Positions 5,443 through 51,742 of a stretch of DNA of 64,000 bases are shown here, piece by piece; the stretch's first letter is position 1; each line of letters begins with the position of its first letter. The stretch comes from a virus (lineage: Duplodnaviria > Caudoviricetes). A program made the translations under genes and the position numbers. Under the pieces are notes generated by a model. It had not been told where the DNA came from, did not search any database, and saw only the letters and a program-made list of their open reading frames with translations. The DNA is taken from positions 53,110 through 117,109 of IMG/VR virus record IMGVR_UViG_3300031555_004942, one strand, 5' to 3'.

Positions 5443-5706
5443 ATGGAACTTTATAAGTTTATAAGCGAAACAGAGATTAAGAAGTATAAAGGTGGATTTG
5501 TTGTTGTAGATAATACAATATACACAAATCCCAAAGAAGAAATAATAAGGATGGCAGGATATAAAGAATTAATTGATACACCTATCCCTGAATATAATCC
5601 TGAAATAGAATATATTGTATTAACATATCAGGATGGTGAAAAAATTACTCCTTGTTATACTGTAAATCAAATAGAGTTCATGGAAGAATTAGAAGTAATA
5701 GAATAA
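5443..5706 (+). CDS. Small fibre-associated hypothetical protein (87 aa)
   Basis: AAGGAG RBS; NP..E....AGYKEL.....PEYNPE motif common downstream of phage fibre genes. Confidence 0.65.
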   Translation: MELYKFISETEIKKYKGGFVVVDNTIYTNPKEEIIRMAGYKELIDTPIPEYNPEIEYIVLTYQDGEKITPCYTVNQIEFMEELEVIE

Positions 5707-5782
5707 TAAAAACTGAATTTTATTGTATAATATAGCACAACATATAGTGTATGATTTTATTTTCATACACTATATATAGTTG
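5706..5782 (+). promoter_or_regulatory. Composite element copy 1: ATAAAA-N6-TTTTAT plus tandem NrdR-like boxes
   Basis: ATAAAA ACTGAA TTTTAT (5706-5723); GCACAACATATAGTGT (5735-5750); ACACTATATATAGTTG (5767-5782); box spacing 32 bp. Confidence 0.75.
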
Positions 5783-5821
5783 TGATTTTGAAATGTTTTA
5801 AAGGAGAAAGAGGTGAAAAAT

Positions 5822-22818: not shown

Positions 22819-22856
22819 TTAAAAATTATTATAAAATATGATTGGCAGGTATTGTT

Positions 22857-24281: not shown

Positions 24282-24298
24282 TAAAGGAGAAAAACGAT

Positions 24299-24952
24299 AT
24301 GAAATATAATAAAGGTTTTGAAGACGTTATTACTTTTTTAACTCCTCAGGTGGAAGAGTTTGCAAATTTTAAAATCCCTTCTGTTGAATCATTAGAAGAA
24401 TGGAATGATTTTAAAAATAGAAAAATTTATCTTGATTTTGAAATAGGTGATTATTTAATTACAATTTCAAAACGTATTATTTCATGGAATAGCGAAGATA
24501 AAGATATTCCAAAAAATGAAAGAAAACCAATAACAATATATATTAATTCCCCTGGTGGAAGTTTACAATCATGTATGACATTTATAGATGTATTAAAAAT
24601 GTCAACAACTCCTATTAATTTAATTTGTATTAATGGAGCGTATTCCGCAGCAGGGATGATTTTTATGTGCAAAGGAGAAAACATTGTTAGATCTATTGTC
24701 CCACATGGAAAAGTTTTGATTCATCAAGGTAGTTTAGGTATGGGTCAGGTTCAAACACATCAATTTTTAGATTTAGCTTCAGATGTACAAAAAGATGAAA
24801 AAAAAGTAAAAGATTATATTTTAGAAAATACAAAAATTACATCTCGTATGTATGATAAAAAGAAGAAAGATGAATGGACTTTAAATGCTGAAGAATGTAT
24901 TCTATATGGAGTATGTGATAAAATAATTGAAGATATTTCAGAATTATTTTAA
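24299..24952 (+). CDS. clpP: ClpP-like serine protease
   Basis: YINSPGGS; AYSAA (catalytic Ser); LIHQ (His); D in KKDEW.LNAEE...YG.CD.I. Confidence 0.88.
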   Translation: MKYNKGFEDVITFLTPQVEEFANFKIPSVESLEEWNDFKNRKIYLDFEIGDYLITISKRIISWNSEDKDIPKNERKPITIYINSPGGSLQSCMTFIDVLKMSTTPINLICINGAYSAAGMIFMCKGENIVRSIVPHGKVLIHQGSLGMGQVQTHQFLDLASDVQKDEKKVKDYILENTKITSRMYDKKKKDEWTLNAEECILYGVCDKIIEDISELF

Positions 24953-26259: not shown

Positions 26260-27300
26260 ATGGCAAGAGAAACTTTTAAAAAACAGTTTACTACTCCTGA
26301 TATTATAAAACAGATTAATCCTAAAAATGTAAAATTAATGAATTTATATTTAAAAGATAAGAGTAGAAAATGTAGTGATGCTACAATGAAAGTGTATGCA
26401 TCTAATTTAAATATATTTTTTTGTTGGAATGTTATATATAATGATAATAAATATTATCCAGAAATTAAAAAAGTAGAATTAAGTGAATTTTTTGATTTTT
26501 TAGTTAATGAATTAAAAATACAAGGAAAAAGGTTTGCTCACTATCGTTCTGTTTTGAGTACCTTATCTGACATTGTAATAAAATATTATGATGATGATTA
26601 TCCTACTTTTAAAAATATTGTAAATACAATTATTGAACCCATTCCAAAAGATGCAGTAAGAAAAAAAACAATTTTAACAGATGAAGAAGTAGAACTTATT
26701 TTTGAAGTTTTGATTGCAAAGGATAGAATACAAGAAGCCTGTTGTTTTGCTCTTGCTGTATATTCTGGAATGAGAATTGCAGAGATTGAACAAATGAAAG
26801 TCGATATGATTGATAGAGAAAATAGTTTATCGTTTGGAGGAGTTTCTTTACAAACTACTGAAAAAATAAGAACAAAAGGATTTGGAAAACAAGGAAAGGT
26901 TATTTATAAACATATCATTAAAGATTTATTTTTACCTTATTTTGATAATTGGTTAGTAGAAAGAAATAGGATTATTGAAGAGTTAGGAATTGAAGACCAT
27001 GGATATCTTTTTATAAAAAGAAATGGTCAAAAAGCTACACAACATGTTATTCGTAATTGGGCAGATAAATGGAGTAAAATTGTAGGTAAAGATGTATATC
27101 TCCATTGTTTAAGACATAACTTAGTTACATATTTAACAAAATTAGGATTAGGTAGTGATTTTATTATTGCTTTTATGGGATGGTCCTCGGCTGATATGTA
27201 CAAAATCTATAATGACCTTGAGGATTCTGAACTTGATTGGAAAGATAGTAAAAAATTACAAGAAATTATCAATAAAAAATTATTAGAAGAAGATGAATGA
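26260..27300 (+). CDS. Tyrosine recombinase (XerC/D-like)
   Basis: N-terminal core-binding domain; catalytic R (SGMRIAE), K (TKG), HCLRH, MGWSS and Y (IYND). Confidence 0.9.
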   Translation: MARETFKKQFTTPDIIKQINPKNVKLMNLYLKDKSRKCSDATMKVYASNLNIFFCWNVIYNDNKYYPEIKKVELSEFFDFLVNELKIQGKRFAHYRSVLSTLSDIVIKYYDDDYPTFKNIVNTIIEPIPKDAVRKKTILTDEEVELIFEVLIAKDRIQEACCFALAVYSGMRIAEIEQMKVDMIDRENSLSFGGVSLQTTEKIRTKGFGKQGKVIYKHIIKDLFLPYFDNWLVERNRIIEELGIEDHGYLFIKRNGQKATQHVIRNWADKWSKIVGKDVYLHCLRHNLVTYLTKLGLGSDFIIAFMGWSSADMYKIYNDLEDSELDWKDSKKLQEIINKKLLEEDE

Positions 27301-30214: not shown

Positions 30215-33200
30215 ATGGATAAAGATATTAAAAAAAATGAAACAACTGGTTTCTGGGATACAAAAAAATGGAGAAATTTTCTTTCAGATATGCAAAGAAA
30301 TGCAGGTTCTTTAGGAATAAATAGTGAAGTAAGTGAATTGATGAAAAAAACTCTTTCAGATAATGCTTTTAAAGCAGATTTTAAAGGAGTTCAGAAACTT
30401 TTTGGGCAAATTCAAGATTTGCAAGGTGGGTTAGATGCTCTTAAAACAATAAAAAATAGTTCTACTAATTTATATAAAGATTTTGTACATAATCTTTATG
30501 GAACTACTTCAGGAAGTGATTATCTTAAGGAATATACATCTCAACAAATAAAACGATTAAATCAAGTAAAATCTATTGTGAGTGGTCAAGAAAAAGAATT
30601 GACATGGGCAACTAAAATGATAGAAAATGGAACTATTATTGCAGAGGGATATAATCTTGCAGGTAATAAAGTAAGACGTAGAGAATATACTCAAGGTAAA
30701 AGCAAACCTGTTTTTTCTAAAGGTGTTGATTATGATAGAAGTGGTAAAATTTCGGCTTCTTATTCTCCTTATAGATATAATGATGTTAATAGTAGGGGAG
30801 ATGTTGTATCAAGAGGGGGTATGTTGAAAACACATTATGATAAAAATGGAACTGTTGTAAATCAAGATATTGTAGATTATAGAACCTCTAAATCTATCAC
30901 TCAACCTGTATCTAAAACATATAGACCAAATCAAGTTCTTAAATCAACATATAAAGGAGTAGGTCCTACAAATAATGATATTTTTATTATGGGAAATCAG
31001 AGATATTCTAAGTTTGTATCAAATAGTCCTATTCAATTAGATAATCAAAAAGATAAATTTGGAAGATACAATGGTGCATTAGAAAGGTTGAGACAAGGAA
31101 TTGATGAATCAATTGCTAACATTGTAAATCAAGGAACACAAGCTATTGATAAAATGTCTGTTAGTACTGTAAAAGGAAGTAATTCAAGGAAGATAAGTAC
31201 ATCTTCTTTTAAAGGAATAGATCCTAAGAAAATGAATTATTTTGATTTTGAAACAATTGGTCAATTAGGTCTTGGCAATTTTATGCCTACTCAATTTTCT
31301 GTTAGACACCAAGATGGTAAAGTTGATAGTAAAGTTTTAAAAATGTCTCAAAAAGGACAGGAGTATATAAGTGGGATTTTAAAAGATTTAAAATCAGGAA
31401 ATTGGGGAAATTTGAATAATGATAAACTTAGGGATTTAACACATATGGCAGATTTCTCTGTAATTAACGGAAAGATTGCTACAAAACACGAAAATTTTTC
31501 TGGAATTCGTCCAGATCAAATTACTGGTAATTTATTAGCTAATATAGAATCTGGTTTTGAGATTTTAAAAAATGCTGAAAAATATACTAATGGTACTGCC
31601 GATGCAAAAAGTGCTATAGAAAATATGTTAAAATCAACTAAAGGGACTATGGTTGGACATAATATTAGATCTTTTGACAATGAAGTATTTAAGCAATTAG
31701 GTGTTGATTTTTCAGATTTTAAATTTTTAGATACTTTAGAAATGGCTAAAAAATATTATAATTATGGAGATATGAGACAACATATTAGTGGAGGAAAATC
31801 AGTACATAAACGATTGATGGGATTTAGTCAATCTCATCTTCAGGATTTCTTCAATATTGATATGAGTGATTTATTAAAACAAGGTATTAATCAACATACT
31901 GCAGAATATGATACGGAATTAAATAAAAGAATTGCTGAAGCAATGTTTAAAGAAATAAATTCAAATCAAGTAAAAAATCGCTATGTGGGAGGAAAAGTTG
32001 GTTCAGTAAAAGTTGGACAGGTTGGAACAGCAACTAAAGGGCATTTCAGACAACATGCATATGATTTTAAAACAGATGCAATGGGAAAAGTTTTAAGAAA
32101 AAGTGAAAATGAGTGGAATGATTTATTGATGAGAAGTGGTGGGCAATATGCCTATGAAGGAAAAACATCAATAACTGATACTAAAGGTGTGGCTCGTAAT
32201 TTTGCTAAATTCTTTGATTTAAATAGTGGTGAATCTGTTTATAAATATGTTGCTGATGATGTTGACCTTGGAAAATTTATGAGTGATATTTTTAATGGAC
32301 ATTTTTCAACAATAAAAGATACAACAACATCTGCAAAAGCTTCGATTTTTAGAGGAGATACAGGTTATGCTAATTTATCTGCATTAATGTCTGCATTACA
32401 AGGCAATTCTGTTTCTCAGAGACAACAATATAGAGCCAATATGCTTAAAGAAGCAGATGGTGGTAAATTTATTACAATGGCTCAACAAATCTATAAAGGT
32501 TTAGAGGGCAGTGGGTTATCAGATATTCAAAAAAGTTTAGCTTTAGAATTAATGGGTTCAAAAATGGGAATGTCTCAACAAAAAATGTTTTCTATGAATA
32601 ATATTAGAGATTTAATTTCTTTAAGTTCTGGAGGTACTGTTAATGGGACAGTTTCTGCTTTGAAAACATTTTTAGGAAAAAATAAACAGTTCTTTGCGAA
32701 TTCATTAGAGTATAGTAGTTTGTTTGAAGATATTGATATAGCATCAAGAGGTATGTCAGATTCAGCTATGGGAACGTCAGGAGATAATTTTTATGGAATT
32801 TATCAACGAATTGCTGAACAACTAAGAGGAAGTGATTTTGCAAAACAATATGAATCACAACTTAAATTTAATAAAGATGTGTATAAAAATGGATATGATA
32901 TTAATAGTATAGTAAAAAAATCAATTGAAGACGTAAATAAATTTGTTAGTAATACTGGAGAAGATGCTTTGGAAAGAATTTATTCAAGTTCATCCAGCGA
33001 AATAAAATCAGCTCTTGATGGAAAGTCATTAAATAAAAGATTGGGAAATCTACAAAAATTAGGTGTATTAAAAGATACGTCTATGGTTGCGACAAAAAGT
33101 ATTTCAGAACAATTATCAAAAAGTATAAAAGGGTTACAAGAAAGTGGTATTGGAACACGAATTAGTCTTTCTGGAGATGGTACTGGATTGAATTTAAGCT

Positions 33201-36200
33201 TATTCGATAGTGCTGATTCAAAAAGTATATCATTTAATTCAGAAGGAAAGATGATATTAGATCCTAATAGATCTGCTTCTGTGTATATTCCATTAGATAA
33301 AGGAAATGGAATATTAGATGATAATGGAATGTTAAAAACAAATATGATGACTACAACTTATGATGGAGAATCAGGTTTTAAATTAACAACATTACAAGAT
33401 AAAATGATTGAATCTATTACAAGAGTTTTAGATTCAGGTAGTATTAGAAAAAATATGTCGGAGGGTAAATTTTCTGCTATAAATAGTGCTTTATTTCATG
33501 CGAAACAAAATGCGTTGAATTTATCTCCATCGGCAGGTACTTATAAACAAGGTTCTATTTGGAATGACTATGAAGATTCTTTTAAAGTTGGGGCATCTCC
33601 TGAACAAATGGCAATAAGAACAAGTATGGTAAATTTAACAGATGGTATTGTTAATTTGTTAGATCAAAATTATGATATTACTCCAAACAATACAGAATCA
33701 TATAATTATAGTCAAGCTATTCAACATGTTATGGATTATGCAGCCTTATTATCAAAAGGAATTCCGAATATAAATGATATGATTTCAGGAGAAAACTCAC
33801 CATATTCATGGATGATAAAAAATGGTAAAGAAGGAGCTTTTGAAAAAACAACATCTCATTTACAAAAATTAGTATCTAATTTACCTATGAATTTAAGTGC
33901 AATAAAAGAAGCAGCTTATTTAAATCAAACTTATGGCTTATTAGGGACTGGAGGTTTTGCTCCAGGATTTGAATGGCATCCAGAAGACCAAAGAAATATT
34001 GCTCAATCACATAATAGACTTAAATTGAAAAAAGCAACAGGATATGCTAAAGAGGCTATGAAAAAAGATGTATTTACATCAGACGTTGCAAAAATTTTTG
34101 GTTTTACTCCTCAAGATACTGTTGAAGCAGGATTAGTTACAGAACAGCATGTTTATGAAGGATATAAAAAAATGTATGAAGCTCAAATGCGAGATGAGGG
34201 TAAAATTAAACCTGAAACAGATGCATGGAATAAAGAATTAAAAAGGAGAATGTCTTCATCTCCTATGTTGTCGGTAGAAAATGATAGTGGTATTATAGCT
34301 AAAGATTTTGCAGATAGTGCTTTTTATTCCATGGAAAAATCTATGACCGTAAATGAAGAAGATTTTTATAAAATTTTAAATGGTAAAACAATTCAAAATA
34401 TTGAAAAATCGGGGTTACATGTATTAGACAAAGGATATAATCTTAGTCAAATGTCTATTGGAAATAAAACTATTCATGATGGAGATATTTTAAAATCAGT
34501 AACAAATAATGGGGATGGCACATATTTCTTAAAAATGGAAGAAATATTGAATATGGGTAAAAATGCTCATTCAAAGGCAATTTCTGGATCTGGAAATAGA
34601 TTTACTGTAGGTTTGGCAAATAGTGATTTAATGAAGTATATAGCTGAAGCAGCAGGATTAAGTTCTGTTCCTACAATGTTTTTAAAGAAAAAGTTAGAGC
34701 CAAGTGAAGATGAAAATGGTAATAAAGTATATAAAAATGAGCTTAAACAAAAAGATATTGCAGGAGCATGGAATGAAAGACTTCAAAAAATATTTTCTGA
34801 TTATTTATCTCAGGGTGGAGATAATAATATACAGAGTTTATATAACAGTTTGCCAAAACAAATGCAAAAATATTTTTCTATATCTGATGGGCAATTAAAA
34901 GGTAGTAGTTATTTTGATGGGACTTCATGGAAAATAAAGGGTTCTAATGAGGAATTATTTGAGAATGAATCAGATATGAAGCATTTCTTTGATTTAAATC
35001 AAACAGGATTAATTGCACAAACAGCAAAAAATTTAGGTGTAACATATGACCCAAATATGATAAGAACTGCTGTTAATATGGCAAATGAGTATTCTTATTT
35101 TTCTGGATTTGGATATAATCCAGATGAGGCTGAATTTGATAGTAAACATAAAGTAACTATGAAAGAACAAGATGCTGTTCGTAGAAAAATAGGAGCATTA
35201 AAAACAAAAGATAATACGTTTGAAACATTTTCTAAACATATGGCTGATTATATTACTAAATCAGAGTTACAACTACAACCCTTACGACAAAAAGCTACGA
35301 GAATTGATAAAATAGTAAGCACAGCGGCTAATGCTAACGCAAGTGAAGCAAAAAAAGCTATTGCTTTAGGGGAACGTACTCTTAAAGTTGTTGATAGATC
35401 AATAAATAGTGAATTAGCTGATGATGAAATTAGTTTACATTCATTAGGAAATCATAGAGGAATTACAAAAGATGGTAAAATATCTGAAAATGCATGGAAA
35501 AATACTTCTGCAGGTATTTTTGCAGAAAGAGCTAAAAAATTAGGATGGGGAGAAGATTATCAGATTGTTTATGAAGGACAACCTGTACAAATTACGACAG
35601 GTGAAGGTCATGTAATGCAAGGAAGTACTATGGTTTTTGGCAATCATGGTTCAGAAATAAAAAAAGGAAAAGTTGCTCCTTCTTCTTTAGATTCGTCTGC
35701 GGATAGAGTTTGGAATGCTTTAAAAGCTATAAAGACAGGAACATATCAGGGAGATATCCCCGCTGATGAATATGTTGCAAATCTTTATAGTTCTTATTTA
35801 AAAGATACTTATGATATGACTCATAGTAAAGAGAGTCCTTTATTTCAAGAATTAAATTCTAAAAGATTAACAAATGCGACAGCAGGAAAAGCTGCAGGTA
35901 CGAACTATGTTCAAATGAGAGCAGATTTTGGGAATGCATATAGTAATGCAGTTATGGTAAACCCAGAGCATTTAAAAGAAATGCTTTCTATTGATAAAAA
36001 AAATGTGTCTAAAGAAGATTATAATGCATATAAACAAAACCTACAATGGATGTATGAAGATTTAGTCCCTCAAAATAATCGTATAAAAAATATGAATAGC
36101 GTATCTTCTTTAATTGATGGAATTGTTAATGCTGTGACAATTGAAAATTCAACATCTGGACCATTAACAAAAGGATTAGAATCAATGTTCCATCGTTTCC

Positions 36201-39200
36201 CATCAACTAATGGATTGGATGAGTATTTTGGACAATTATTTGTTTCTAAAGGATTACAAAAAGGAAACATATCTGTAGGAGCAGGTCTTGCGTTAAGAGA
36301 AAACTTAGACTTTGATGGTGATGTTCAATATGCCGCATTATTGGGATTAAATAATAAATTTAAAGATAAAAATGAATGGAATAAATTTAGAAAAGAAAAT
36401 ACTAAAATAAGAACATGGGATGAGAATATTTCAAAAAAACTACAAGCAAAAGTTCTTAGTGAAGCTAATGTAGAAAATAGTGATGTATATGATTCAGAAA
36501 ATGTTGTAAAAGCATTGCAACAATATAATGAAACAGTGTCAACTCCTGTATTTTCTAAAAAGAATTTTGGAAAAATAGGTGGATTATCTAACTTCTCTAC
36601 TGCTGTTAGAAATAAAATGAAAAATGCAGGTATTGATGAAACTTCAAGTTCTGCAACTATAGAGCAAAAAGCAAATGCAATAATGACACGTTCTGTATTT
36701 GAACTATTTGAACAAGATGCTATAAGTTCTAAAAAAGTTGCTCAACGTATGCTTTCAAAATCAGAAGGAAATGAAAAAGCACTTATTGATGATTTAGATA
36801 ATTTTTATAAAATGTTAAGTAGTATGGATTATTCATCAAAAGGGGCAAAATGGAGTTCTGTATTTGCAGAAGCAGAAAGATTAGGTATTTTTGGGAAAGA
36901 TGGAGTTTTTGATACCAGACAAGCTCATAATGCTGTTTCTACTATAGAAGAACTTGGTAGATATCATGGTTATGGTGGTTTAAAAGGTGGAGTTGCAGGT
37001 AGAGCCTTATTAGAAAAAGTATTTGGAAAAGGCACTGTTGGTAGTTTTTATGATGAAAAGGGGAATCTTTTATCTGGAGATGTATTAAAAACAGCAGGTG
37101 TTGTATCTCGTGATGCTTATTTGAAAGCAGTAACAGCTATTGATGAAAGTTTAGGAAAAGATTCTTTAAGTTCTGCGATATATGATGAAAAAAATGTTAT
37201 TGGTCGTGCTTCTCAAAAATCTTATGAAAAAGCTGTAAGAGAATATATGAAAACGTTCTCTAAAAACCATGGTATGGGAAAAATGACAAATAAGGACATT
37301 TATGCATCGGGAATTAATGGTACAACACTTATTGATAATTTATCGCAAGAGAGTGGACAAACAGTTATTCCTGAGGTTCAACAACAAGGAGGTCAAGCAG
37401 GACTTGCATTATCTCAGGATGCAGTTGCAATAATTGAAGCTATTACAAATGCATTAAATGGACAGACTGCAGCATGGAAAGAAAATGGAATGGCTGTAGG
37501 AAATGCTATAAAAAATACAAATGCAATGACTGTAGCTCAAAGAAAAAATGCAGAATTAATGAAAAATCCTGTTAATGCAAGAAAGGCAGGGTTAAATGTT
37601 CTTCCTGGTGAAAACATTATGGAAAATTATGATAATATTGTTCATTCTGCATTAAGTGGCTCAGGTCAATCTATGTTTACTGATGAACTTATGTTTAGAA
37701 ATATAAGAAAAGCAGAATTAGACCAAGAAACTCATAAATATTTTGTTGATGGTAAACAGCAAAATATTGATTTCTCATTATCTCAAGCAGGAATTTTAGG
37801 AAGAGAAAATAAAACTTTTACTGAATCTTTTGCGACTTCAGAAAGAAAACAGTTATTTAAACAATATTTAAATGGTGAAGATATAAAAATTAGAAATTCT
37901 TTATCTGATATGCCTACTGTTTATTCTAGTGCTAATGGCAATCAAATTAGAGATTTAAGAGATTTAGAAGATAAGGCAGGATATTATTTCCAAGATATCG
38001 CTGCAACTGAAAGAGGTAGAATATTAGGTGATGTTACTCATGATATGTTAGATCATTATTCTCAGTTGAGTAATACTCGACTTAAAAGTATGACTCCTGA
38101 TAGTTTTATTTCTCAATATTTCGCAGGAAATGTTGCAGGTACTAAACTTAATGATTTATCAAAAGAATGGAGTTTAGCTGGAGGAACAGGTTCTTTGTTA
38201 GAAAATCTTCAAGGAATTTCAGGAAATACTTTTAAGGCTATAAATGATCTTAGTATTGTAGGTATTGATAAATTATTTAAAGATGCAAGTAAAAATAATT
38301 TATTGTCTCAATCCGAACAATCTTTTGTGGGTGAAATATATGATCCAGTTACAGGAGCTTTAAAAACATTTGGTGGTACATTTGATGCTATTTTAAAAAA
38401 TATGGTAGTAGACTATAAAACTGCTAAAAATCCTGATGTAAATAAATTTGCTGTACAATTGGAAATGTTATTAAGGACTATTGAATCCTATGCAGGTTCT
38501 GGATTAAATGATAGTGCAGTGCAAGAATTATACTCGCAGATATCTAAAGCAGGTATTGCAATTCATAATACTCAAACAGGTAATACTTCTGCAATACAAT
38601 TAACAAGACCAAGTAATGCTGCTTTGGCAAAAACAATGAATTATATTCAATATAGTCAATCTTTGCAAGATATGTCTGAAATTAGAGATCCTAATTTTGT
38701 AGATCTTGTATGGACAAAAGGAGATCTTAGAAGATTTTCAAATAATAAATTACAAAATGCATATAGAAATATTAGTGAATTCTTATATCAAGGGTCTACA
38801 TCTGGTGGCACATCTGAAGAGAATTTTCAAAAATTTTTATCTGGTTTTGCAAAAGATGGATTAACTTTCAAAAAGAATAAAGGAACTTCGGAAAGTAATA
38901 AAGGAACTTCTTCTTGGTTTGTAGATGATAATGGACAACGTATGGTTATGAGCGTAGATTTTGCTAATGGTAGAGTGTCAAGTCCAAGTTCATTAAAAGT
39001 TAGAGAGCTTATTTCTGATGAAAAAGGAAAATATTTAAGTGATGAACAAACATACTCTCATTATTTAAATGAATATTTAAAAGCATATCAAAGATATAAT
39101 GATTTCAGTTTGTCAGATGAGGAACAAAGACACGCTACAGCTAATTTTAATAAAATGCGTGAAAAACTTTTCAACTTTGAACAACAAGGATTTTTAACAC

Positions 39201-42200
39201 CTGAAAAAATCAATGAATTAAGACAAGCTCATTTAGATAGTCCTGAAGCAGAAAAGATGTTGAAAGCAATAGGAGAACCTCCAAAAGAAGCATCTCAAAG
39301 GAATTATGTAAGTGCATATCAGAGATTATCAGAAGCTCAAAATAAAATAAGATATCAGGAAAGTTTACCTACAGCTTTAAGAGATTCAAAAGTTTATGAT
39401 ACAGAGATAATGAATGCTCAAAAAGCACAAGCTGATTTAGATAAAGCTCGTCTTGAATTGTATTCAAAAGAAGGTGGTGGAGTTAGAAGTGATGTAGAAG
39501 TACAACAATTGCAACAAAGATTGCAAGATTATGTTAATTTCCATCCTTCAATGTTAGGAAAAATAATTCCTCAAGAAGCATCTTATGAAGATATTACAAG
39601 ATTAGCAAATGATGATAGTAAAAGTGCAGGATATAATAAAATTTTATCTGACAGATTAGCAATAATAAAACAACTTGTTTCTGCACAAAATGAATTAAAT
39701 TCTCTTGTTAATAGTGGAGACAAAAAAGCTATTACTAATGCAACAGCAAAAAGAAATCAAGCACGAGCAGAACTTGACAATATAAATAAAATTATTGGTG
39801 AATTAAATCCTTATTTAATAGATGCAAATAAACAAATTGTTTCTGATACAATGCAAGAACAAGATAAAATATTATCAGGCGAATCAGCAAATCTTGAAAA
39901 AGGTACAAAAGAGTATGAGCAAAGAAAGCATATGGTTGAAGATTTTAAAAAATATAATAAAGAAATATTAGATTTGCAAGAAAAACAACATGCTATTCAA
40001 ACTAAAATGAAACAAGGAAAAGCAACAACTGATGATTATGCTCAACTTCAACATATACAAAAACAAATTTCTGATACTCAGGCAATTATGCCTACACTTG
40101 ATAAAGATGGTTTTATTTCTGATAAAACAGGAGCTAAGTTTAAAACAACTGAAGCTCAACAAGCTGATATTCATCATACATTCGCTCAACAAGAAAGAGA
40201 TTATAATAAGCGTATAGCTGAACAAACTATGCTTGCAAGTGGTAAAAAAGGGCTTGGAAATTATTTAAAGAATTTAGGCAAACAAACAATTGGATATTTT
40301 AGTATGTCGATGTCCTATAAAATTATAGGTATGATTACTCAAATCTTCTCTAGTATAATTCAGAAAACAAAAGAATTTAATAAAACAATGATTGATATTC
40401 AAATTGTTACGAGAAAATCATCTAATGAGGTTGGAGATTTAGTTAAAGAGTATAACGGATATGCTAAAGAATTAGGGGTAACAACACAGGCTGTAGCAAC
40501 TTCTGCAAACCAATTTTTACGTATGGGTTATAATGCTCAAGAAACTGCAAAGTTAATTGAAAGTTCAATGAAATTATCTAAATTGGGTATGATCGAAGCA
40601 GGTCAAGCGGCTGAATATCTTACATCTGCAATAAAAGGATATCAATTATCTGCTCAAGAATCTGAGAAAGTTGTTGATATGGCTACAACTCTTGATATGA
40701 GTTATGCAGTCGATGCAGGATATATTTTATCAGCAATGTCAAGAACAGCTACTTCTGCTAAATTAGCAAAAGTTGAAATGTCTGAATTACAATCAATGAT
40801 TGCAGTTATTGGTGAAACAACTCAGAAAGATGCATCTGTTGTTGGTGAGAGTTTAAAAACTGCATTTGCAAGATATGGTAATGTAAAAGCAGGTGTTGCA
40901 GCAAAAACTAATTTATCTGATTTAGATGAACAAAGTAAAGATGAATTAGAAGCTGTAAATGATATTGAAAGAGTATTAACTACATATAACATAGATGTTA
41001 GAGAATCCGATAATAAAACATGGAGAAGTTATTCTAACATAATGAAAGATATTAATGAGCAATGGGCAAAATATTCTGATTATGAAAAGAATGCGATTGC
41101 TACTGCTATGTTTGGTACAAGACAGAGAGAAAATGGATTAGTTGTTCTTGAAAAATATAATGAAGTATTAAAAGCAAATGAGAAGGCTATAAATTCTGAA
41201 GGAACAGCAAATAAAAAATATGAAACATATCTTACAGGTGTAGAAGCTGCTCAAAATAGATTTACTGCGACATGGGAAAAATTCATCAATAATATTAATG
41301 GTAGTGATGGATTAAAAGTATGGTATAATCTTTTAACACAGATTGTTGAAATGATGAATCATTGGAAATTAATCTTAGGAGTAATTGTTGCAATGAAAGC
41401 TCCACAGATCTTTACTGCCTTTGGTAAGTTTTCTAATTCTTTTGGTGGATTTTTTACTGGTGCAAAAAAGACATGGGGATCTGCAACTTCTGGTTTTAAA
41501 GAAAAAGGATGGTCTGGAGTTTGGCAAGGAACAAAACAAGCTTTTAAAGATAGTTGGGGCGACATTGAGACCGATGCTAAAAATAAATTGAGTTTAAAAG
41601 CTGAAGTTCATGAAGCTAATAACCTTTTAGCACAAATATTACAAACACTTCAAGGAAAAGATATTGATGGGGATAATGATTCAAATACTACACAATCTGC
41701 AGGTTCAAAATCTTCAACACAAAATAATTTAAATAATCAAAATGTTCCTATTTCATTATTAGGTAATGGTCAATCAAATCCAAGACCAAGTGGGGGAGTT
41801 AATATAATTCCATCAGACGGAAGTGTTATTCCAATGGGTGGAACTGTAAAAAATGTTCTTTCTTATGGAAATAATCCAATATTATTAGGAAATGGCTTTG
41901 TTCCTCAACCTGTAGGAAATGGTATTATGTCATTACCTCAAGGTAATATTATAACAGATCCATCATTAATGTTACCTCCTGCAATAAGTGGAGGTCCTGT
42001 AGGTAAAGCTATTTTACTACCAAAAACAGCAGGGGGAGTTAATGTAATTCCATCAGATGGAAGTGTTATTCCGATGGGTGGAACTGTTGGTAGTGTTATT
42101 GATAAAAAGAAAAAAACAACCAATAAAAAAGAAAAAGCAGAAGCAAGAGCTAAAAGAGAACAAGAAAAACAAAAAATTAAAGATGCACAAAAAAGAAATA

Positions 42201-45200
42201 AAAAAGCAGAAAATGCTCGTAAAGAATATAATAGAACAATAGATAAAGGTGGACCTTTTACAGAAAAAGATAGGGGATTTTTTAAAAACAAAAGAGAAAC
42301 AATTAAAAACATGCCACATACTTCTTTGTCTTCTACCTTAAGAAAAACAACTATTGATGCTGATATTGCAAGAGTAGAAGATAATATTGATTCTATGTTT
42401 ATTGGTAGTCATCATAAAAGACAACAAAGATATAATGAGTTATTTCATGCAAAACGATATAGTAAACGTAGTTTTAAACCAACAAAAATAAAAAATGTTC
42501 AGAGAAATGCTTTAATTCCAACAACAGGGATAGCTGTTAGTGAAAATACCAACATTCCTAACAAACAAGGATGGTTTAGTCAAAAATGGCATGGATTTAA
42601 AGACAGATTAAGAGAAGAAATTGCTTTTCGTGAAGCACGAGGAGAATACAGAGTCGGAAAATTAAGACAAAAAATAAATAATCGTTTTGGGCATAATAAA
42701 GGATTTACAGATATTCCATGGACTAATGATCCTTCATTAATGTTACCTCTTGGACAAAATACTAATAACATTCCTCAAAAACAGGGATGGTTAAAAAAAG
42801 GTTGGAATAAAACAAAATCCGCTATTTTAAAGCCATATAAATTTTTAGACAATAAAGTAAAAAATAGTCAGGCGGCTGCAAATATGGCATCTACCATAGG
42901 AACTATGACTGGTTTTATTGGTGGAGGAATGCTTGGTAATGCTATTAGTGAAGAACATGGTGGAACTATTGGATCATTATTAGGAATTACAAATATGGCA
43001 ATAACTGCTATTAATCCTTTAATTGGAGCTATAACTGGTGTAGTTTCTACTGGATTAGGTATTATTGTAAATCAAATAAAAAAACATAATGAGAAACAAA
43101 TAAAGTTGGCTCAAGAGCATTATGAAAAATTACAGAATAAAGTATCAACTTTAGAAAATTCAACTAAGGATTTTAATAGATATGATTTGTTATCACGTGG
43201 AGTTAATGAATTTGGAAATAATGTTTCTTTGTCTGATTCAGAGTATGAAGAATTTTTAAAACTTGGAAACGATTTAGGAGAATCTTTCCCTGAATTGATT
43301 ACTCGAATTGATGAAACAGGAAATTCATTTCTTGGCTTTGATGGCAAGATTGGCAATGTAGTTCAGGGACTTGAAGAATTCACTAAACAATTAAAAAAAT
43401 CTGAAGCAATTGCGGGATTAAATAAAGATAATCTTGAGGGTGAATATAGTTCTTATGTATCAAGGATTAGAGATATAAAAGATAATATTCAGAGTAAAAA
43501 AGAAAGTAGTAAGTTTTTATCAGATTCAGAAATTCAAAGATTAAATAAAGAGGGAAAATTTTATATTAATAAAACAGAAATGTCTGATGAAGATATAAAA
43601 ACTTTAAAAGAATTAAAAAAAGATAAAAATTTAAATATAAAAAAAGAAGAGTTGAGTAATTCTCTAAATAATGGGTTTTGGTCAAGTGTTTGGGCAGATA
43701 TTAAGTATGAGTGGGGACTTGGAGAAGATCCATATTCAGATGTTTATACATTTAAAAAAGAAGATCTTGAAAAAAATAAAGATTTAGAAAGATTGTATTA
43801 TAAATATTCTGGAGATATAAATACTTCTGAACAATCTATAAAACAACAAGAAGCAGAAATAAAAAGAATAAGTGGACAATATACCTCAGATATATTAAAC
43901 AACTTAATAAATTCTGGACAAGTAAATCTTGATAATGATACAAAATCTATGGTATCTACTTTACTTAATAATTTATTCCCTGATATAGATGAGGCTACTA
44001 AAGTTTGGAATAGCAGAGAGGGAGAAGCAGTATCTATAAAAGATAACATATTGGATATTGCCAACCTTATTAGTTCTGGAGATAGTGCAATTTATTTAAA
44101 ACAAATGTCTTCAATAAATACTTCTGATAATTTACAAAATGCCAATAATTCATTTAATGAATCTTCTAATAATTTAAAAAATGAATTATTTGTGAAAAAT
44201 TCAGCATTTGTGAAAGCGTTAGAAAATCAAGGCTATGATATTGATTATAAGAAACAAACAGTTACTAAAGATAACAAGACTCAAACTTTTGATGATTATA
44301 TTTTAGATTTAACTCCTCAGGGTAAATCACTACATAATCTTAATATTCAATTAGATAGTAAAACTAAAGATGGTAAAAATCTTTATGATATTGATGGATT
44401 ATCCAGAGATGTTTTACAGACAGAATTTTCTCAAGATGAATTAAGAGAAATATTAGGAATGAGTGAATTAGAAGTTAAAAATATAATAGGAACTTCAACA
44501 GGGGATGAAGCTATAGATAAATTAAGAACACGAGCAATCATTAATACTCAAAATTCTATGGATGATGTGTCTGGTTCATTTGTTACTGCTTTCAGGAATC
44601 TTGCGGATAAAGATGGCAAAAAAATATTTGATGATTTAACAGAATCTGAAATTGCTCAATATGCACAAGATTATTTTGATTATCCTGAAGAAACTTTAAA
44701 AAGATTAAATGAACAAGGAGTAACGCTTAATGATTCTATGCTTAAATACCTTGAAAGATTAAAAGAATATGCGGATCAATTAGATATGTCTGTGGATGAT
44801 TTTGTTAAGAATGCAAAATATGTATCTCATTTAGATTTAAATGGTTTTAGTACAAAAAAAGCATCAGATATTAAAACTGAAATAAATACTTTAATGGAAG
44901 TTGCTGATTCTATTCGTCAAGGAAATGAAATTACTGGAGAGCAGATGGATGCTTTAATGAGTTCTAATCCAGAAATATTAAATGAAGCAATGAAAGATCC
45001 CAATTATTTAAATAATCCTACACAAGCATATTTATCAGCAATTGAGAAACAATTATCGTTTTTTGAAGGAGCTTCACATAATGTATCTATAGGAGGATAT
45101 TATGCGAAGGATAGTACAGGATTTTGGGATACATATATTGACCCTAACAATGATTTATCTTGGATAAATTCTTTGGGTGGGGCAATGAATGCTTCTAAAT

Positions 45201-48200
45201 ATTTCATAGGAGAAGATTTTAATCTTAATACTAATTATAAGAGCGAAGATTATGATAAAAAATTTACTGACAAAAGTGGATTACAATCTGGAATTCAAAA
45301 GATAAAAACAGACCAAGGATTTACAACAGATGCACAGGCTTATGATTATTTAGTGACTACGTTTGGTACATCTGAACAAAAGCAAAGGTATAATAAATTA
45401 AGTGGTACAGATAAAGAAAATGAAGCAAAAAAAATTGCTGATGAATTGGCTACACAATATTATGATTGGTTAGAGAATATAACTGATTTAAGTCCTGAAT
45501 TAAAAAAAATTTTTGAAAAAATCGGAGAAAGTATAAATATTTCTAATGAGGTAGAAAATGCAGAAAGAGATGCATCTAATTATTATGGACTTCAAGATTT
45601 GAGACAAAAAATGTCAAGACAAAGAGAAGATTATAAAGAACAATTAAAAGATTTAGAGGTTCAAAAAAGATTAAATGAATTAGAGAACTATCTACAAAAA
45701 CGTAATCTTTTAATTGATAGATATAATAATGAGATTGCCAATGCAGATTGGGCATTAGATATAATTGCTCCTTCTGATTATTTTGGTAAGATTGATATAA
45801 CTGCTAATAAGTTAGAAGCTACTTTGAATAAATATAATGAGCTAAAAGCTCAATTTAAAGAGTTATCTGAGATGACACCTCAATCTCCAGAAGAAGCTCA
45901 AAAAATAGCTGATACTATGAAATCTATTACTGATCAAATGCCAGAGCTTACAAAAGAATTAGCAAAAGCAGAGGAGACTCTTAAAAATATTGCTTTAGAT
46001 TCTATAAGTGAAAGTATAAATAATATTACGAGTTCATTTGATCAACAACGAAAAGTATTAAATAATTCTGTTGAAATGTCTTTAAGCTTTACAGGAGTAA
46101 GTTCTAGTTTGGATTTATTAGGATTGGATTATACTCCAATGATAGAAAATAAAACTGAAGTAGAAAAAAAACAAGATGAATATAAAACATTATTATCTAT
46201 GCAAGAAGATTTTCAGGATGAATCTTTAGAGTCTCAAAATACTTATTTAGATTTATTAAAAACAGATCAAGAAGAAGAGTATTTTAAAAATAAAAAGAGA
46301 CTTAGAGAAGATGATATAGCTTCAATGAGAAGTTATTATAATGAATTATGGGCTTATGCGAAATTAGGTAAAGAATTAACTGAAGACGAAATGAAATCAG
46401 TAGTGTCTTATTTTAAAAATGCTGAGGGCATTGATTTCTTACCTGATTTTTATCAAACTGGTAATGGCAAGTGGAGATATTCACAATCAGGTAAAAGTGG
46501 AGAATCAGATGATGAGGATACTCCAGAAATAGATAATAATGCGATTGGGCAAATAACGAAAAAGATCTCTAATAAAGAAACATTAACAAAAGATGAAAAA
46601 GAACAATATGTTAATCATTTAAAATCATTATATGGGGATAAAAAACAAGAAAAATTTTTTATAGAAAACGAAGATGGATATTCTTTTAATCAGGAGGAAT
46701 TTCGTAAATCATTACTTCAGCCTGATGGTTCAATATTAATGCCTACATCATCTGCTAATATACCATCACAAGCTGATATAACTAAAACAGTAGAGCAAAT
46801 GATAAAAACAGGTGTTGAAAATGTTGATGTAAATAGCACAGAAATAAAAACGAAATATATAGCCCCAAAAATTGGGCAATTACTTGGAGCGTTTTTAGAT
46901 GTTTGGAATGAAGACAAAAATAAATTAGAATATAAACTTACAAAACCATCTCTTTTAGGATTTTCTGATGGGAAATTATCAGCCGATGGAGACAATAAAG
47001 GATGGGGTAGTCAAGGTTTAATTCAAGACATGAAAGATGCTATGAAAGAAGTAATGCATGGATTAAATGAAGATAGTTCTAATTGGAAATTAAATGCTCC
47101 AACTCCTGATAAAACGTCATGGGAAACATTTGGACAAACTATCGGGGAATATATTTCCGATGGCATTGATAAAGGTGTAGAAATAGGATTAGCTCGTCAA
47201 TCAGAAGATTCTTTACCTACTTCTGAGGGTTCTGGTTCTGCAGGAAGTATGTCTTCAACAGCTACATCTTCAGGTTCAATTCCAACTGGTGCGGCAATGT
47301 ATTTTCATTCTCCTTATGACAAAATTAATGGACATGTAGGTATTTATGGTGGAGATGGATATATATATCATTTAGGTAAAGGAGTAAAAAAAAACACTCT
47401 TCAAGAATTAGAATCAAAAGGATATGTATACAGAGGATGGGGTTGGAGTGGTGGAAAAGACCAATCTAACCAAGGATATAAAATTGCTGAAGAAGCTAAA
47501 AAAATGAGTAGTTATGGATATGCTTCTGGAAATTGTCAAAAATGGGTGTCTAAAGTATATCAACAAGCATTAGGTGGAAATAGATATCAATATACAAGAC
47601 CAAGTGCAAAATTAGCAGGAGATGAGTGGATTATTGGTAATGCAAGAGATGGAGAAAATTCTTCACTTGTGGGAATTAATCAGAATACAGCAATTGGAAG
47701 ATTAATTGCTAAAAAAGCTCAAGAACATAATTTGGGATATGGTATTTCATTAGATGGTTTAGGTTTTCTTTCCGCTAAATATGAGGGTGGAAAAGTAGGT
47801 GCTATTGCTACAGTAAAAGGAGATCATGGTGGAACATCTTATGGTATTCCTATGTTTGCAACAAATACAGGTTCTGCTGATAATTTTGTACGTTGGTTAA
47901 AAAATCAATATCCTGACCTTGGTAAATTTTTTGGTTATCATAAAGCAGGAACTCCTGGATTTAATCAAGCATGGAAGAATGTATCTGATTTATATTCTCA
48001 GATATTTGGACAAGCTCAAATACAATATGGAATGGATACCATAGTAGACCCTCAATATAATAAAATCCTTAAAAAATATGGATTAGACATGAAGAGAAGT
48101 AGAGCTTTATATGAAGTGTTAATTTCAATGGCATATCAATATAATAATTTATCTACAGGATTATTAAATGGGTATAAGTCAAATATGACAGATCGTGAAA

Positions 48201-51200
48201 TTATAGAATTAATTTATAATAATAAAGCAAATAATGTTAGTAGTAATTTCAAAAGTAGTTCTAAATCGGTACAAAGAGGAGTTGCTAATCGTATCAAAAA
48301 TGAAAAAATAGATGCTTTAACATTAGCTGCTTATTCTATAGGTACTTCATATCATAAAGGAGGTAAGGCTCTTTTAGGAGATGAGAATCTTTTAAAAGGA
48401 ATTAATCAACCAAGTCCTGAAACATTAATTTATCCAAATGGAAAAGTAGAAATTATCGGAGAAGATGGACCAGTTATTAAAAATATTCCTATTGGCACTC
48501 AAGTATTAACGACATCTCAAACAAAGGCTTTATTTAGGAATATACCTAATTATGCAGAAGGTACAGAAGTTGGCAAAGCATATTTTACAAGTGGTAATTA
48601 TAATATTAGAAAAGGTCCTAATGGTGAAATTATTACAACTATTCCTAAAGATAAATCATATGGATTCTATTTAATGGATGAAAATGGGGAATGGAAAAAA
48701 GGTACATTCTATTATGGAAATGAAGAAAATAGAAAAATGATGGTTGGTTGGATTCATCAAAATGGATTAAAAGAATATAAAGATGATTCTAATAATACTC
48801 CTATAGAAGCACATAATGTATATAATGATGGAGAAATAGGCAAAGAATATTCAGCATCAACCATATCATCTCAAGAAAATAATGATAATAAAGAGACTTC
48901 GAAAAAGAAACTTACTAAAGAAGAAATTCAAGCAATTGAGAAAAAAGCTCAAGACTTAATTGATACATTATCAATACCATTTGAATCAAAAGCTAAGGAA
49001 ATTCAGATAAATAAATTAAATAAAGATTTATATAAAAAACCTATAATTGAGTTATATGAATATATGGATGATACTACTACTGATTATGTAGAACGTATAC
49101 AAAATAAAGCTATGTTGGCAATGTATAAAAAAGAAGGAGACTTAGATACTTTATATCAAGAAGCAAATTTATATAAAGATCAACAACAAGCTTTATTAGA
49201 AGAATATTATGCAGCTATAGAACGTGGTGAAAGTACAGAATTTTTAAGCAAACTCAAAGATTCAATTTTGGAATTAGATGATGCTCTTAAGAGCGTAGAT
49301 TCTGAAATCCAATCATGGGTTGATGAAATGATTTCTTATGCTACTCAAGCATTGGAAGCCTTTAGATCTAAGATTAATCATGAACAAGAAATGTTAGATT
49401 TTGATTATAACTTAGGAGTTATTGGTAAAAAGACTGATGAAAACTATTATAAGGTAAGGTCTGAAAATAGAGAAGAATTAAAAAGACAATCAGAAAAATA
49501 TATTGATTCTGTTGTTAATACTATTGTTAGACAAGCATTAATTGAGGGAGCTTCTGTTGAAGCTGCATATAATAAAGCTTATAATAGTGAAGAATATAAG
49601 ACTGCCATAAAAGAACATTATCAACTCTTTGAGGCTGAAAAACAAGATAACGAAGATAAATTAGCAAGTCAACGAGAAGAAATAAGAAATAGAGAAACTC
49701 TATTAGATTTATCAAGAGAAGAACGTTGGAATAATCTTGATAATATTAATATCTATTATGGGGAAAAAGAAGAAGCTATAGATAATGAAATAATAGCTTT
49801 AAAAGAAGCATTAAAGTGGGAAAATCTTTCTCATGAAGAATATGTACAAAAAACTATGGAAATAGCAGATCTTGAAAAGAAAAAAGCAGATAATATAAAA
49901 GCAAGATTAGAAGCTATGCAAGAATTCTATAGTAGACAATATGATTCTATGACGTATATGGTTAATGAATATACCGATGCTCTTAATGATGAAAAAGAAG
50001 CTATTTCTAAGACTTATGATGAAGAAATCAGAAAATTACAAACTGTTAATGAGCAAAAAGAACGTGGCATAAAACTAACCGAATTACAAACTGCTTTAGA
50101 TAATGCTAAAAAAGAAAAGAAACGTATATATAGAGCAGGTGTTGGTTTTGTTTATGAAGAAAACAGAGAAGAAATAAACAAAGCAGAAAAAGAATTAGAA
50201 GATTTCTATAGTCAAGATCGTATTGATAGCATGAATGAAGCTAAAGAGTTAGAATTAAAAGCACTTGATGAAAGGATTGAAGGTTGGAATAAATATCTTG
50301 AAGCAATTGAAAAAGTATATAAAACTGCTGAAAGACGTGACCATATGAAAGTACTTGAAGGCTTATATGGAGTTGAAGGTTGGGAAGGTATTTGGAAAAT
50401 TTTAAATGATGATTCAAATGAATTCTTAATAAATAAAGAAGCAGGTCAAGACATTTATTATGGTCAAAACACCAATATGTTAGAAAATTATATAGGTGTA
50501 TCTTCTGAAATTTATAAAAAAATGGATGAAGGTGTACAACTTTTAAAAGATATAAGTGAATATGAAACATCATCTGTAAAATTACAAGGAGTTCCTAATT
50601 GGAGAGATTATGCTCATGTTATAAGTGATTTTAATGCAACTGCATCTGATTCTACTTTAATTCAACAGTTAAATGAAGAATATGGTTGGAATTTAACTCC
50701 TCAAGATTTAAAAAATATGAGTGACCAGAAATATAATGATTTATTTGCTGAAATAACTCAGTTATTTGAATCTAAAGGTCCTGAAGAGGCAATGAAATCA
50801 TTAAAATATGTTTTAGAAACAGGATGGATAGATGGAGATTCACCTTTGGGTACGCTTACTTATGGTACATATCAACAAGCATATAATATTGGTAAAGATA
50901 TATTGTTAAAAAAAGGTTCTCCTTTATATAACACCTTTAACCAACCAACAAACCTTGATTTAAACAAATTAGGTTTATCTTATGGTGTGTATGTTCATGA
51001 TGGATTCTCTAATAATCTTATCAAAGATGGTAGAGTTAATAAAGATTCGATAGATTATAAAAAATTAAAAGAAGGTCATTTTTCTGATGAAGACATATAT
51101 AATTTTGCTTTTTCAGACATGATAAAGCAAAAAGCTAAAGAAGCTATCGAAACAGATTTAGATATAAATGGTGTTATTTTACCACAATTTAAAGATGGTA

Positions 51201-51742: not shown

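What the first reader, a model, noticed from the sequence alone, without database searches (positions are those of the whole stretch)
30215..51742. 21.5-kb single ORF as an injected multi-enzyme polyprotein
Domain order seen: DEDDh exonuclease, RNAP, PD-(D/E)XK nuclease, helical linker, TMP core with TM segments, permuted NlpC/P60, muramidase, SH3b, coiled coil. About 3,300 aa of nucleic-acid enzymes lie N-terminal to the TMP core and the cell-wall enzymes lie C-terminal to it. Inference: the C-terminus works at the tail tip on peptidoglycan, while the N-terminal cargo is delivered to the cytoplasm, probably after proteolytic release. An RNAP flanked by two nucleases on a TMP looks like an undescribed host-takeover/DNA-entry module.
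Basis: partly seen in the sequence, partly recalled or inferred. Interest (0 to 1): 0.9.

Follow-up and report, generated by a model that had tools for sequence, protein, structure and literature searches.

The report
Tape measure protein carrying RNA polymerase
The 7,175-residue tail "ruler" protein of this uncultured SPbeta-like phage also contains an RNA polymerase and two nuclease domains, so the phage probably injects them with its DNA; a ruler-fused polymerase was already proven in Thermus phage P23-45, but not in this lineage or with nucleases.

Summary
The ORF is real: 7,175 aa, and a 7,678-aa homologue in an independent 197-kb assembly has the same domain order. Supported domains, N to C: DEDDh exonuclease, single-chain two-barrel RNA polymerase (closest folds QDE-1, P74-26 gp62, P23-45 gp96), RecB-like PD-(D/E)XK nuclease, SPbeta-YomI-like tape-measure core, probable permuted NlpC/P60, lysozyme, probable SH3b.

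The fusion is a lineage trait. In 37 of 45 non-redundant relatives the polymerase sits in the same ORF as the tape core; 26 carry the PD-(D/E)XK domain and 11 the DEDDh. The cargo is nearly cysteine-free like tape measures (0.014% against about 1.9% in other proteins), which fits passage through the tail.

"Undescribed" is wrong for the core idea: Thermus P23-45 gp96 is a proven tape-fused virion polymerase and stays uncleaved in virions. Similarity to gp96 is motif-level only, so the fusion is probably independent. I found no support for proteolytic release or host takeover: no protease or conserved cut site, and consensus sigma-A promoters precede early genes and a second, YonO-like polymerase.

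I found no paper on this lineage or on the added nucleases. This scan has noted the same class repeatedly in other genomes. Verdict: new variant of a known kind.

The parts
30215..51742 (+). Giant tape measure polyprotein gene, 7,175 aa, one cysteine only (C5774)
   Evidence: colinear 7,678-aa homologue P0041
31226..31978 (+). DEDDh 3'-5' exonuclease, aa 338-588, all catalytic residues present; optional in the family (11 of 45)
32912..37204 (+). Single-chain two-barrel RNA polymerase, about aa 900-2330; basic pair K1454/R1462, catalytic DFDGD at 2032, bridge-helix and trigger-loop-like motifs at 2122-2174
37700..38623 (+). RecB/AddB/Cas4-like PD-(D/E)XK nuclease, about aa 2496-2803 (H2609, E2701, D2724, D2733, K2735, Q2748); detected in 26 of 45 relatives
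   Evidence: its structure model was too poor to use
38762..40204 (+). Helix-rich linker running into the tape core; no conserved cleavage motif
40274..41356 (+). Tape-measure core (PF10145 at aa 3416-3634), homologous to SPbeta YomI and to Sundance and Enterococcus phage tape measures
41369..43066 (+). Region with weak hydrophobic segments (aa 3719-3737 and 4255-4284), candidate membrane-inserting part
   Evidence: hydropathy only
47282..47644 (+). Probable circularly permuted NlpC/P60 peptidoglycan peptidase (His5707 before Cys5774); kept in P0041
   Evidence: no Pfam hit
47759..48307 (+). Lysozyme-like muramidase (PF21277); P0041 carries a different, non-aligning segment here
48572..48769 (+). 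Probable SH3b wall-binding domain
   Evidence: no Pfam hit
49442..50434 (+). Conserved C-proximal segment shared with most relatives
21243..22304 (+). Major tail (tube) protein with Ig domain; no sheath gene recognised among the structural genes scanned
   Evidence: syntenic YomU-tube gene in L001 (23)
24299..24952 (+). ClpP-like protease gene; the only candidate trans-acting protease near the tape measure, not linked to it in all relatives
26260..27300 (+). YomM-like tyrosine recombinase, a synteny marker of SPbeta-like tail modules

Best explanation
This is the tape measure protein of a large SPbeta-like siphophage of a Bacillota host, extended at its N-terminus by a virion RNA polymerase and two nucleases. 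It most likely works like Thermus P23-45 gp96. About three copies lie unfolded in the tail tube, C-terminus at the tip and N-terminus under the head (inferred from 80alpha and T5). On infection the C-terminal part leaves first, the NlpC/P60-lysozyme-SH3b insert opens the peptidoglycan, and the hydrophobic segments help form the membrane channel. The N-terminal cargo leaves last, just ahead of the DNA, refolds on the cytoplasmic side and probably stays attached to the channel. There the polymerase transcribes the first-entering DNA and may help pull the genome in. The conserved PD-(D/E)XK nuclease most likely cuts or resects the incoming genome end (to open a template for a polymerase without a sigma factor, or to prepare ends for circularisation), and the optional DEDDh trims 3' ends of DNA or RNA. 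Shown here: domains, catalytic residues, polymerase fold, family-wide fusion, cysteine depletion. Inferred: virion location, activity, order of ejection, tethering, nuclease targets.
For: Polymerase motifs are invariant across 22 relatives at only 16-36% identity and the fold matches two-barrel polymerases. It is fused to the tape core in 37 of 45 non-redundant relatives; of the other eight, six end at a contig edge, one is a broken copy of the same fusion and one is stand-alone. There are 12 cysteines in 88,140 cargo residues, against 1.9-2.0% in the other proteins of three genomes and 23 in the 966-aa non-virion polymerase; gp96, YomI and the Sundance tape measure have none. A second, YonO-like polymerase is encoded in the same genome (G000 46217-49117) and in G005, giving the two-polymerase layout of P23-45. 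Precedent: gp96 is active, full-size in virions and transcribes the first 9 kb (PMC10770324). Orientation: N-termini at the neck in 80alpha; C-terminus and muralytic domain at the tip in T5.
Against: No activity or virion data exist for any member. I found no phage-specific promoter motif: repeated intergenic words in three genomes are mainly sigma-A -35 boxes and ribosome-binding sites. The second polymerase gene lies behind a consensus sigma-A promoter in all three genomes, unlike P23-45, where the virion enzyme transcribes it, so what this enzyme transcribes is unknown. The PD-(D/E)XK domain was not detected in 15 of the 37 fused relatives and the DEDDh is absent from most, so neither is essential across the lineage. 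How the N-terminus crosses the membrane is not known even for gp96.
Confidence: 0.7

Rival explanations
1. One reading: the cargo is injected but cut free by proteolysis (during tail assembly or after entry) and acts as diffusible enzymes.
For: Tape measures are often cleaved (T5 pb2, lambda; 80alpha is seen fragmented). A ClpP-like gene lies in the tail region here and in L002 and L006. A stand-alone, cysteine-free DEDDh-RNAP gene (P0010) exists in a different tail module, which suggests the module need not be fused to a tape core.
Against: gp96 is full-size in virions (PMC10770324). There is no HExxH motif in the chain and no conserved motif in the 130 aa before the tape core in 27 aligned sequences. 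The known T5 cut frees the C-terminal muralytic part, not the N-terminus. The ClpP-like gene is far from the tail genes in G004 and G005. Cleavage after entry cannot be excluded by sequence.
Confidence: 0.25
2. The nucleases are host-takeover or counter-defence weapons (degrading host DNA or RNA, or defence-related nucleic acids) rather than tools for the phage's own genome.
For: Patchy distribution typical of conflict modules: DEDDh needs at least 4-6 gains or losses on the polymerase tree. The best solved matches include TREX-like and RNase T-like exonucleases.
Against: Only about three copies per virion; early genes depend on host sigma-A promoters; the PD-(D/E)XK domain keeps a fixed position right after the polymerase across deep branches. 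The DEDDh distribution on the tree is not clearly different from shuffled labels (33-43 of 500).
Confidence: 0.25
3. The cargo is made as a fusion but removed before tail assembly and works as ordinary non-virion enzymes in the infected cell.
For: A 1,400-aa folded polymerase cannot fit a tail tube; a late-expressed polymerase could serve late transcription.
Against: Extreme cysteine depletion of the cargo, unlike cytoplasmic phage enzymes; a separate YonO-like polymerase already exists; the gp96 precedent.
Confidence: 0.07
4. Assembly chimera or chance read-through of separate genes.
For: Read mapping could not be run. Two homologous contigs show breaks (L002: one TGA; L097: one TAA and a frameshift).
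Against: P0041 is a continuous 7,678-aa ORF in another assembly, identical to L002 over 5,284 aa with glycine at the TGA position, and aligned with the query from aa 59 to 6843. Many uninterrupted 3,600-4,300-aa fusions exist. Codon use is uniform.
Confidence: 0.01

Closest known systems
Thermus phage P23-45 gp96 (also P74-26, G20c, TSP4), tape-measure-fused virion RNA polymerase (Chaban et al. 2024, PMC10770324; PDB 8H2M, 8H2N)
   Same: Two-barrel polymerase with DFDGD at the N-terminal side of a giant, cysteine-free tape measure; wall hydrolase and membrane segments C-terminal; second, non-virion polymerase in the genome; structural match Z 7.1-7.3 over 231 residues.
   Different: Sequence likeness only at the catalytic motif (HHalign probability 3%, 58 columns); tape parts show no significant similarity. 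The polymerase module is longer (about 1,430 aa against 800). It has two flanking nucleases, which none of my profiles find in gp96 (108). Different phage lineage and probably a Gram-positive host. The non-virion polymerase gene lies behind a sigma-A promoter.
Bacillus phage SPbeta YomI and related tape measures (Sundance gp35, Enterococcus EF1/VRE9 phages, phAss-1)
   Same: Homologous tape core (4e-11 to 9e-27), same synteny (tube, YomM-like recombinase, tape measure), wall hydrolase in the C-terminal half, YonO-like polymerase elsewhere in the genome.
   Different: In the three checked (SPbeta, Sundance, phAss-1) the core begins at about aa 130-720 and there is no polymerase or nuclease cargo; here it begins at aa 3354.
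Single-chain two-barrel polymerases: Neurospora QDE-1 / RDR2, P74-26 gp62, crAss-like phi14:2 gp66, SPbeta YonO
   Same: Both barrels in one chain; best structural match QDE-1 (Z 9.9, rmsd 3.6 over 277 residues).
   Different: None is tape-fused. No profile similarity to the genome's own YonO-like enzyme. gp66 did not appear among the 50 listed structural matches (inconclusive).
Injected polyvalent proteins of phages (Iyer et al. 2017, PMC5512222) and tape-measure-related effectors of Streptomyces contractile systems (PMC13277306)
   Same: Large virion-delivered chains with swappable enzyme domains.
   Different: A text search of the polyvalent-protein paper finds no mention of tape measures; the Streptomyces effectors are bacterial, and the abstract describes no polymerase.

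Membership tests
Two-barrel RNA polymerases | DxDxD triad preceded by [RK]xP in the beta'-type barrel | tested here: met
   R1994-x-P1996 and D2032/D2034/D2036 invariant in 22 sequences
Two-barrel RNA polymerases | Second barrel with two basic residues about 8 apart | tested here: met
   K1454 invariant in 22; R1462 invariant in 9 and the majority residue in 22; model aligns to QDE-1 and gp96 from this region onward
Two-barrel RNA polymerases | Fold similarity to solved polymerases | tested here: met
   Foldseek top hits are all beta'-type subunits; VIA Z 9.9 QDE-1, with 8 of the top 10 rows being polymerases; Z values are modest
Two-barrel RNA polymerases | Template-dependent RNA synthesis | not testable with these tools
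   needs an in vitro assay
P23-45 gp96-type tape-fused virion RNAP (works like) | Polymerase in one ORF with, and N-terminal to, the tape measure | tested here: met
P23-45 gp96-type tape-fused virion RNAP (works like) | Present uncleaved in virions | not testable with these tools
   indirect only: cysteine depletion, no cut motif
P23-45 gp96-type tape-fused virion RNAP (works like) | Second, non-virion polymerase in the genome | tested here: met
   YonO-like gene G000 46217-49117, with DFDYD motif, 27% to G005 homologue
P23-45 gp96-type tape-fused virion RNAP (works like) | Own promoter motif before pre-early genes, including the second polymerase | tested here: inconclusive
   no such motif found by simple word counts; sigma-A consensus found instead; contig is probably incomplete
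gp96 sequence family (membership) | Sequence or profile homology to gp96 beyond the catalytic motif | tested here: not met
   gp96 was compared as a single sequence
DEDDh exonucleases | ExoI DxE, ExoII NxxxxD, ExoIII HxAxxD | tested here: met
RecB-like PD-(D/E)XK nucleases | E...D...DxK catalytic set with upstream GxxxH helix | tested here: met
RecB-like PD-(D/E)XK nucleases | QxxxY motif after DxK | tested here: inconclusive
   Q2748 kept; tyrosine present in most relatives but replaced in the window's copy (45)
SPbeta-like siphophage tape measure | YomI-like core, YomM-like recombinase upstream, SPbeta-type portal and tube | tested here: met
Permuted NlpC/P60 | Catalytic His N-terminal to catalytic Cys in a papain-like fold | tested here: inconclusive
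   order and conservation met; fold only by language-model look-alikes sharing 128-154 of 256 features; no Pfam hit

The most novel reading that the evidence does not exclude
A widespread, unpublished lineage of SPbeta-like phages independently evolved a tail-delivered entry machine in which a nuclease prepares the incoming genome end for a tethered polymerase whose main job is to pull in or license the DNA, since host sigma-A promoters already drive early genes. In this member the whole chain acts as ruler, giving a tail of about 1.05-1.2 micrometres, longer than any measured so far.
Probability: 0.3. Interest if true: 0.78.

Novelty: new variant of a known kind. Interest (0 to 1): 0.56.

Why it matters
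The tape-fused virion polymerase was known from one small group of Thermus phages. This shows it is a standing feature of a broad lineage of SPbeta-like phages in metagenomes, where it is annotated only as 'minor tail protein', and that further enzymes ride on the same chain. It gives a new highly diverged polymerase family to assay. It makes a sharp prediction about how folded enzymes travel in a tail tube: 1,150 nm if the cargo counts as ruler and 615 nm if not, at the P23-45 ratio of 0.16 nm per residue. It also suggests tape measures could carry large enzymes into Gram-positive cells. The value is tempered by the existing precedent and by the lack of a cultured member.

Tried and rejected
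Direct searches with the window's polymerase alone found nothing significant in Pfam, PHROGs, the PDB, the word-indexed protein set at full length, IMG/VR patterns or cultured phages (only E 0.7 to a Ralstonia jumbo phage protein at the catalytic motif). Relatives came from the exhaustive HMMER search. No cultured phage with this polymerase was found. The AlphaFold model of the PD-(D/E)XK domain was unusable (pLDDT 41), so no fold search was made for it. A search for a virion-polymerase promoter gave only ribosome-binding sites and sigma-A boxes. Other DxDGD matches in relatives' genomes (L032, L039, L040, L041) lack the R-x-P context and were rejected as polymerases. Apparent 'split' homologues were rejected as natural splits: most are stop-codon recoding (TAG or TGA read-through), intron-like insertions or single stops and frameshifts. 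Host assignment from MAG bins (Bacilli, Bacteroidaceae, Christensenellaceae) was not trusted because these look like phage contigs inside bins. The tree was the quick version, with long branches. No complex prediction was run. The statement that N4 virion polymerase lacks cysteines is from memory; the paper was not held. Literature searches found no description of this lineage's fusion, but subscription journals are not covered.

Full report
Setting. The window is the right-hand 64 kb of a 117,109-base, 27% GC virus contig without terminal repeats. The structural run is SPbeta-like: terminase (7107), portal (9796), probable capsid genes, Ig-bearing tube protein (21243), YomM-like recombinase (26260), then the giant ORF (18, 128). 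No sheath gene was recognised. No DNA polymerase or helicase was recognised by comparison with two complete relatives, so the contig is probably incomplete. Consensus TTGACA-17-TATAAT promoters, strong AAGGAG sites and a CHAP lysin point to a Bacillota host (inference).

The ORF runs 30215-51742 without a stop. GC3 and codon adaptation are flat along it. Read mapping could not be run, but an independent test appeared: P0041, a continuous 7,678-aa protein on a 196,832-base contig of another archive, aligns with the query at aa 59-2751 (33%), 4223-4405, 4838-5365 and 5541-6843 and carries the same exonuclease, polymerase, nuclease and tape core in the same order. A chimera is therefore very unlikely.

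The polymerase. No library recognises it directly. An exhaustive search found 25 relatives, and profile searches added 20 IMG/VR loci, 10 proteins, 3 genome-bin loci and 35 metagenome loci. Across 22 aligned sequences at 16-36% identity to the query, the invariant residues include those of a two-barrel active site: K1454, R1994-x-P1996, D2032-x-D2034-G-D2036, G2122 and Q2167-x-x-I-S-x-K-K. The profile hits vaccinia Rpo147 and phiKZ gp55, and weakly AR9 beta'. The AlphaFold2 model of aa 1180-2340 (pLDDT 67, pTM 0.66) retrieves beta'-type subunits by Foldseek, and QDE-1 (Z 9.9), P74-26 gp62 (8.3), RDR2 (7.7) and P23-45 gp96 (7.3) by VIA-align. These Z values are modest, and the case rests on motifs, profile and fold together. 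The best predicted viral match is a protein annotated 'minor tail protein' of Siphoviridae sp. ctnpt50 (1.5e-22), which shows how the domain is hidden in databases. The conserved module starts near aa 900, which corresponds to the very N-terminus of the shortest relatives.

The nucleases. The DEDDh domain keeps all catalytic residues in the window and in its relatives, and its profile matches TREX-like, RNase T and PolC exonucleases. The PD-(D/E)XK domain has the RecB/AddB/Cas4 layout, with Pfam PF12705 hits in 8 of 14 members and a profile match to AdnAB-type nuclease domains. Among 45 non-redundant sequences, 37 have the tape core in the same ORF as the polymerase, 26 the PD-(D/E)XK domain, 11 the DEDDh, and 8 all three. 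Of the eight without a tape core, six run off their contigs, one (L097) is a broken copy of the full fusion, and one (P0010, L005) is a true stand-alone DEDDh-polymerase gene between two other giant genes. DEDDh is scattered on the polymerase tree, with eight of nine cases in one supported clade that also holds members without it (quick tree). The PD-(D/E)XK domain is therefore close to a core part and the DEDDh an accessory.

The C-terminal half. The tape core is homologous to SPbeta YomI and to tape measures of other cultured Bacillota phages; in the three checked (SPbeta, Sundance, phAss-1) the core begins at aa 130-720 and no cargo is present. The lysozyme is solid (PF21277, 9e-36). The permuted NlpC/P60 and the SH3b are probable; the protein's only cysteine is the predicted NlpC/P60 nucleophile, and P0041's only cysteine aligns with it. 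P0041 has a different sequence where the lysozyme lies, and three shorter relatives scanned have no Pfam wall-hydrolase domain, so the wall enzymes are a swappable insert followed by about 1,000 further residues.

Is the cargo in the virion? This cannot be shown here, but one independent signature supports it. The cargo regions of 37 fusions hold 12 cysteines in 88,140 residues (0.014%), whereas other proteins of three genomes hold 1.9-2.0% and the non-virion polymerase 23 in 966 (121). gp96, YomI and the Sundance tape measure have none. The enzymes thus share a constraint of chains that pass through the tail. The stand-alone P0010 is also cysteine-free, which suggests it too is packaged.

How it most likely works. 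In 80alpha the three tape N-termini sit under the head next to the DNA end and the C-termini at the baseplate (10.1101/2024.12.10.627806). In T5 the C-terminal muralytic part leaves first and hydrophobic segments form the channel (10.1101/2022.09.20.507954). The cargo here would therefore leave last, directly before the DNA. P23-45 has a 5,002-aa tape measure and an 800-nm tail, 0.16 nm per residue, which fits the whole chain, polymerase included, serving as ruler (my inference). The same ratio predicts about 1,150 nm here, or about 615 nm without the cargo. After refolding, the polymerase would transcribe the first-entering DNA at the pore. What it transcribes is open: unlike P23-45, the YonO-like second polymerase gene lies behind a consensus sigma-A promoter in this genome and in both complete relatives, and early regions carry many such promoters. 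No phage-specific motif was found. This weakens a P23-45-style cascade and leaves room for a role in pulling DNA in. For the nucleases I favour work on the phage's own genome end or transcripts over host destruction, because of low copy number, fixed position and dependence on host polymerase; this step is inference at roughly even odds against counter-defence and other roles.

Proteolytic release. Not supported: gp96 is full-size in virions (PMC10770324), the chain has no HExxH motif, and the helix before the tape core shows no conserved cut site (100). A ClpP-like gene lies nearby here but not in all relatives (91, 65). Cleavage after entry remains possible.

Comparison with what is known. 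It works like gp96 but is not a member of the gp96 sequence family: similarity is limited to the catalytic motif and the tape parts show no significant similarity, so an independent fusion is likely, though a very old common origin is not excluded. A term search of that paper's supplements, including its two-polymerase survey, did not find ctnpt50 or tape-fused entries beyond the title, and my literature searches found no description of this lineage or of tape-fused nucleases. Within this scan the class is common: 103 notes in at least 73 genomes match the search words, and the eight shown describe polymerase in or beside a tape measure, including a 7,531-aa case with two nucleases. These notes are unchecked leads; the conclusions above rest on my own calls.

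Verdict. Real feature, correct anatomy, partly right interpretation. New variant of a known kind; interest 0.56.

Noticed in passing
L003, L004, L006, L007 (tape-measure core of relatives): The tape core is often interrupted by intron-like insertions, some with a nested ORF; L007 9295-9564 is a group I intron by Rfam (73 bits). Many '2,200-2,900 aa' homologues end inside the core and are probably first exons.
   Followed up: partly
L009, L014, L016-L018, L020-L025, L027 (TAG read-through); L011, L012 (TGA read-through): A large share of the family uses recoded stop codons; the fused ORF opens only under code 15 or code 4.
   Followed up: partly
L005 4023-26574: Three giant genes in a row (1,986, 2,305 and 3,213 aa); the middle one is a stand-alone DEDDh-polymerase, the first two are cysteine-free, and no tape core of this family was detected.
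   Followed up: partly
G000 14176, 15906, 23847, 34866, 36303, 39519 (outside the window): Six perfect sigma-A promoters point against the minus-strand early genes, each next to a hairpin; three face small repeated ORFs of about 43 aa. It looks like antisense-RNA/peptide cassettes. Not seen in G004 or G005.
   Followed up: partly
G000 46217-49117 (outside the window): YonO-like non-virion RNA polymerase whose catalytic motif reads DFDYD instead of DFDGD.
   Followed up: partly
window 22842-24952: A beta-CASP metallo-beta-lactamase nuclease and a ClpP-like protease are inserted between tube and tape-measure genes, as in L002 and L006; the pair lies elsewhere in G004.
   Followed up: no
L002 13786-13788; L097 6467-6469 and about 10600: Single in-frame stops and one frameshift in otherwise intact giant genes; for L002 another assembly has glycine there. 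Assembly errors or defective variants.
   Followed up: partly
BFVD hits A0A7R7G2L5_2 and A0A172Q021_2 (Acinetobacter phage ME3): Strong structural matches to the polymerase model (7e-16 and 7e-7) in large unannotated viral proteins; a cultured phage such as ME3 might offer a testable relative. Not checked by sequence.
   Followed up: no
window 57468-60056: BspA-type leucine-rich repeat protein in the tail-tip region, a candidate adhesion or receptor-binding protein.
   Followed up: no
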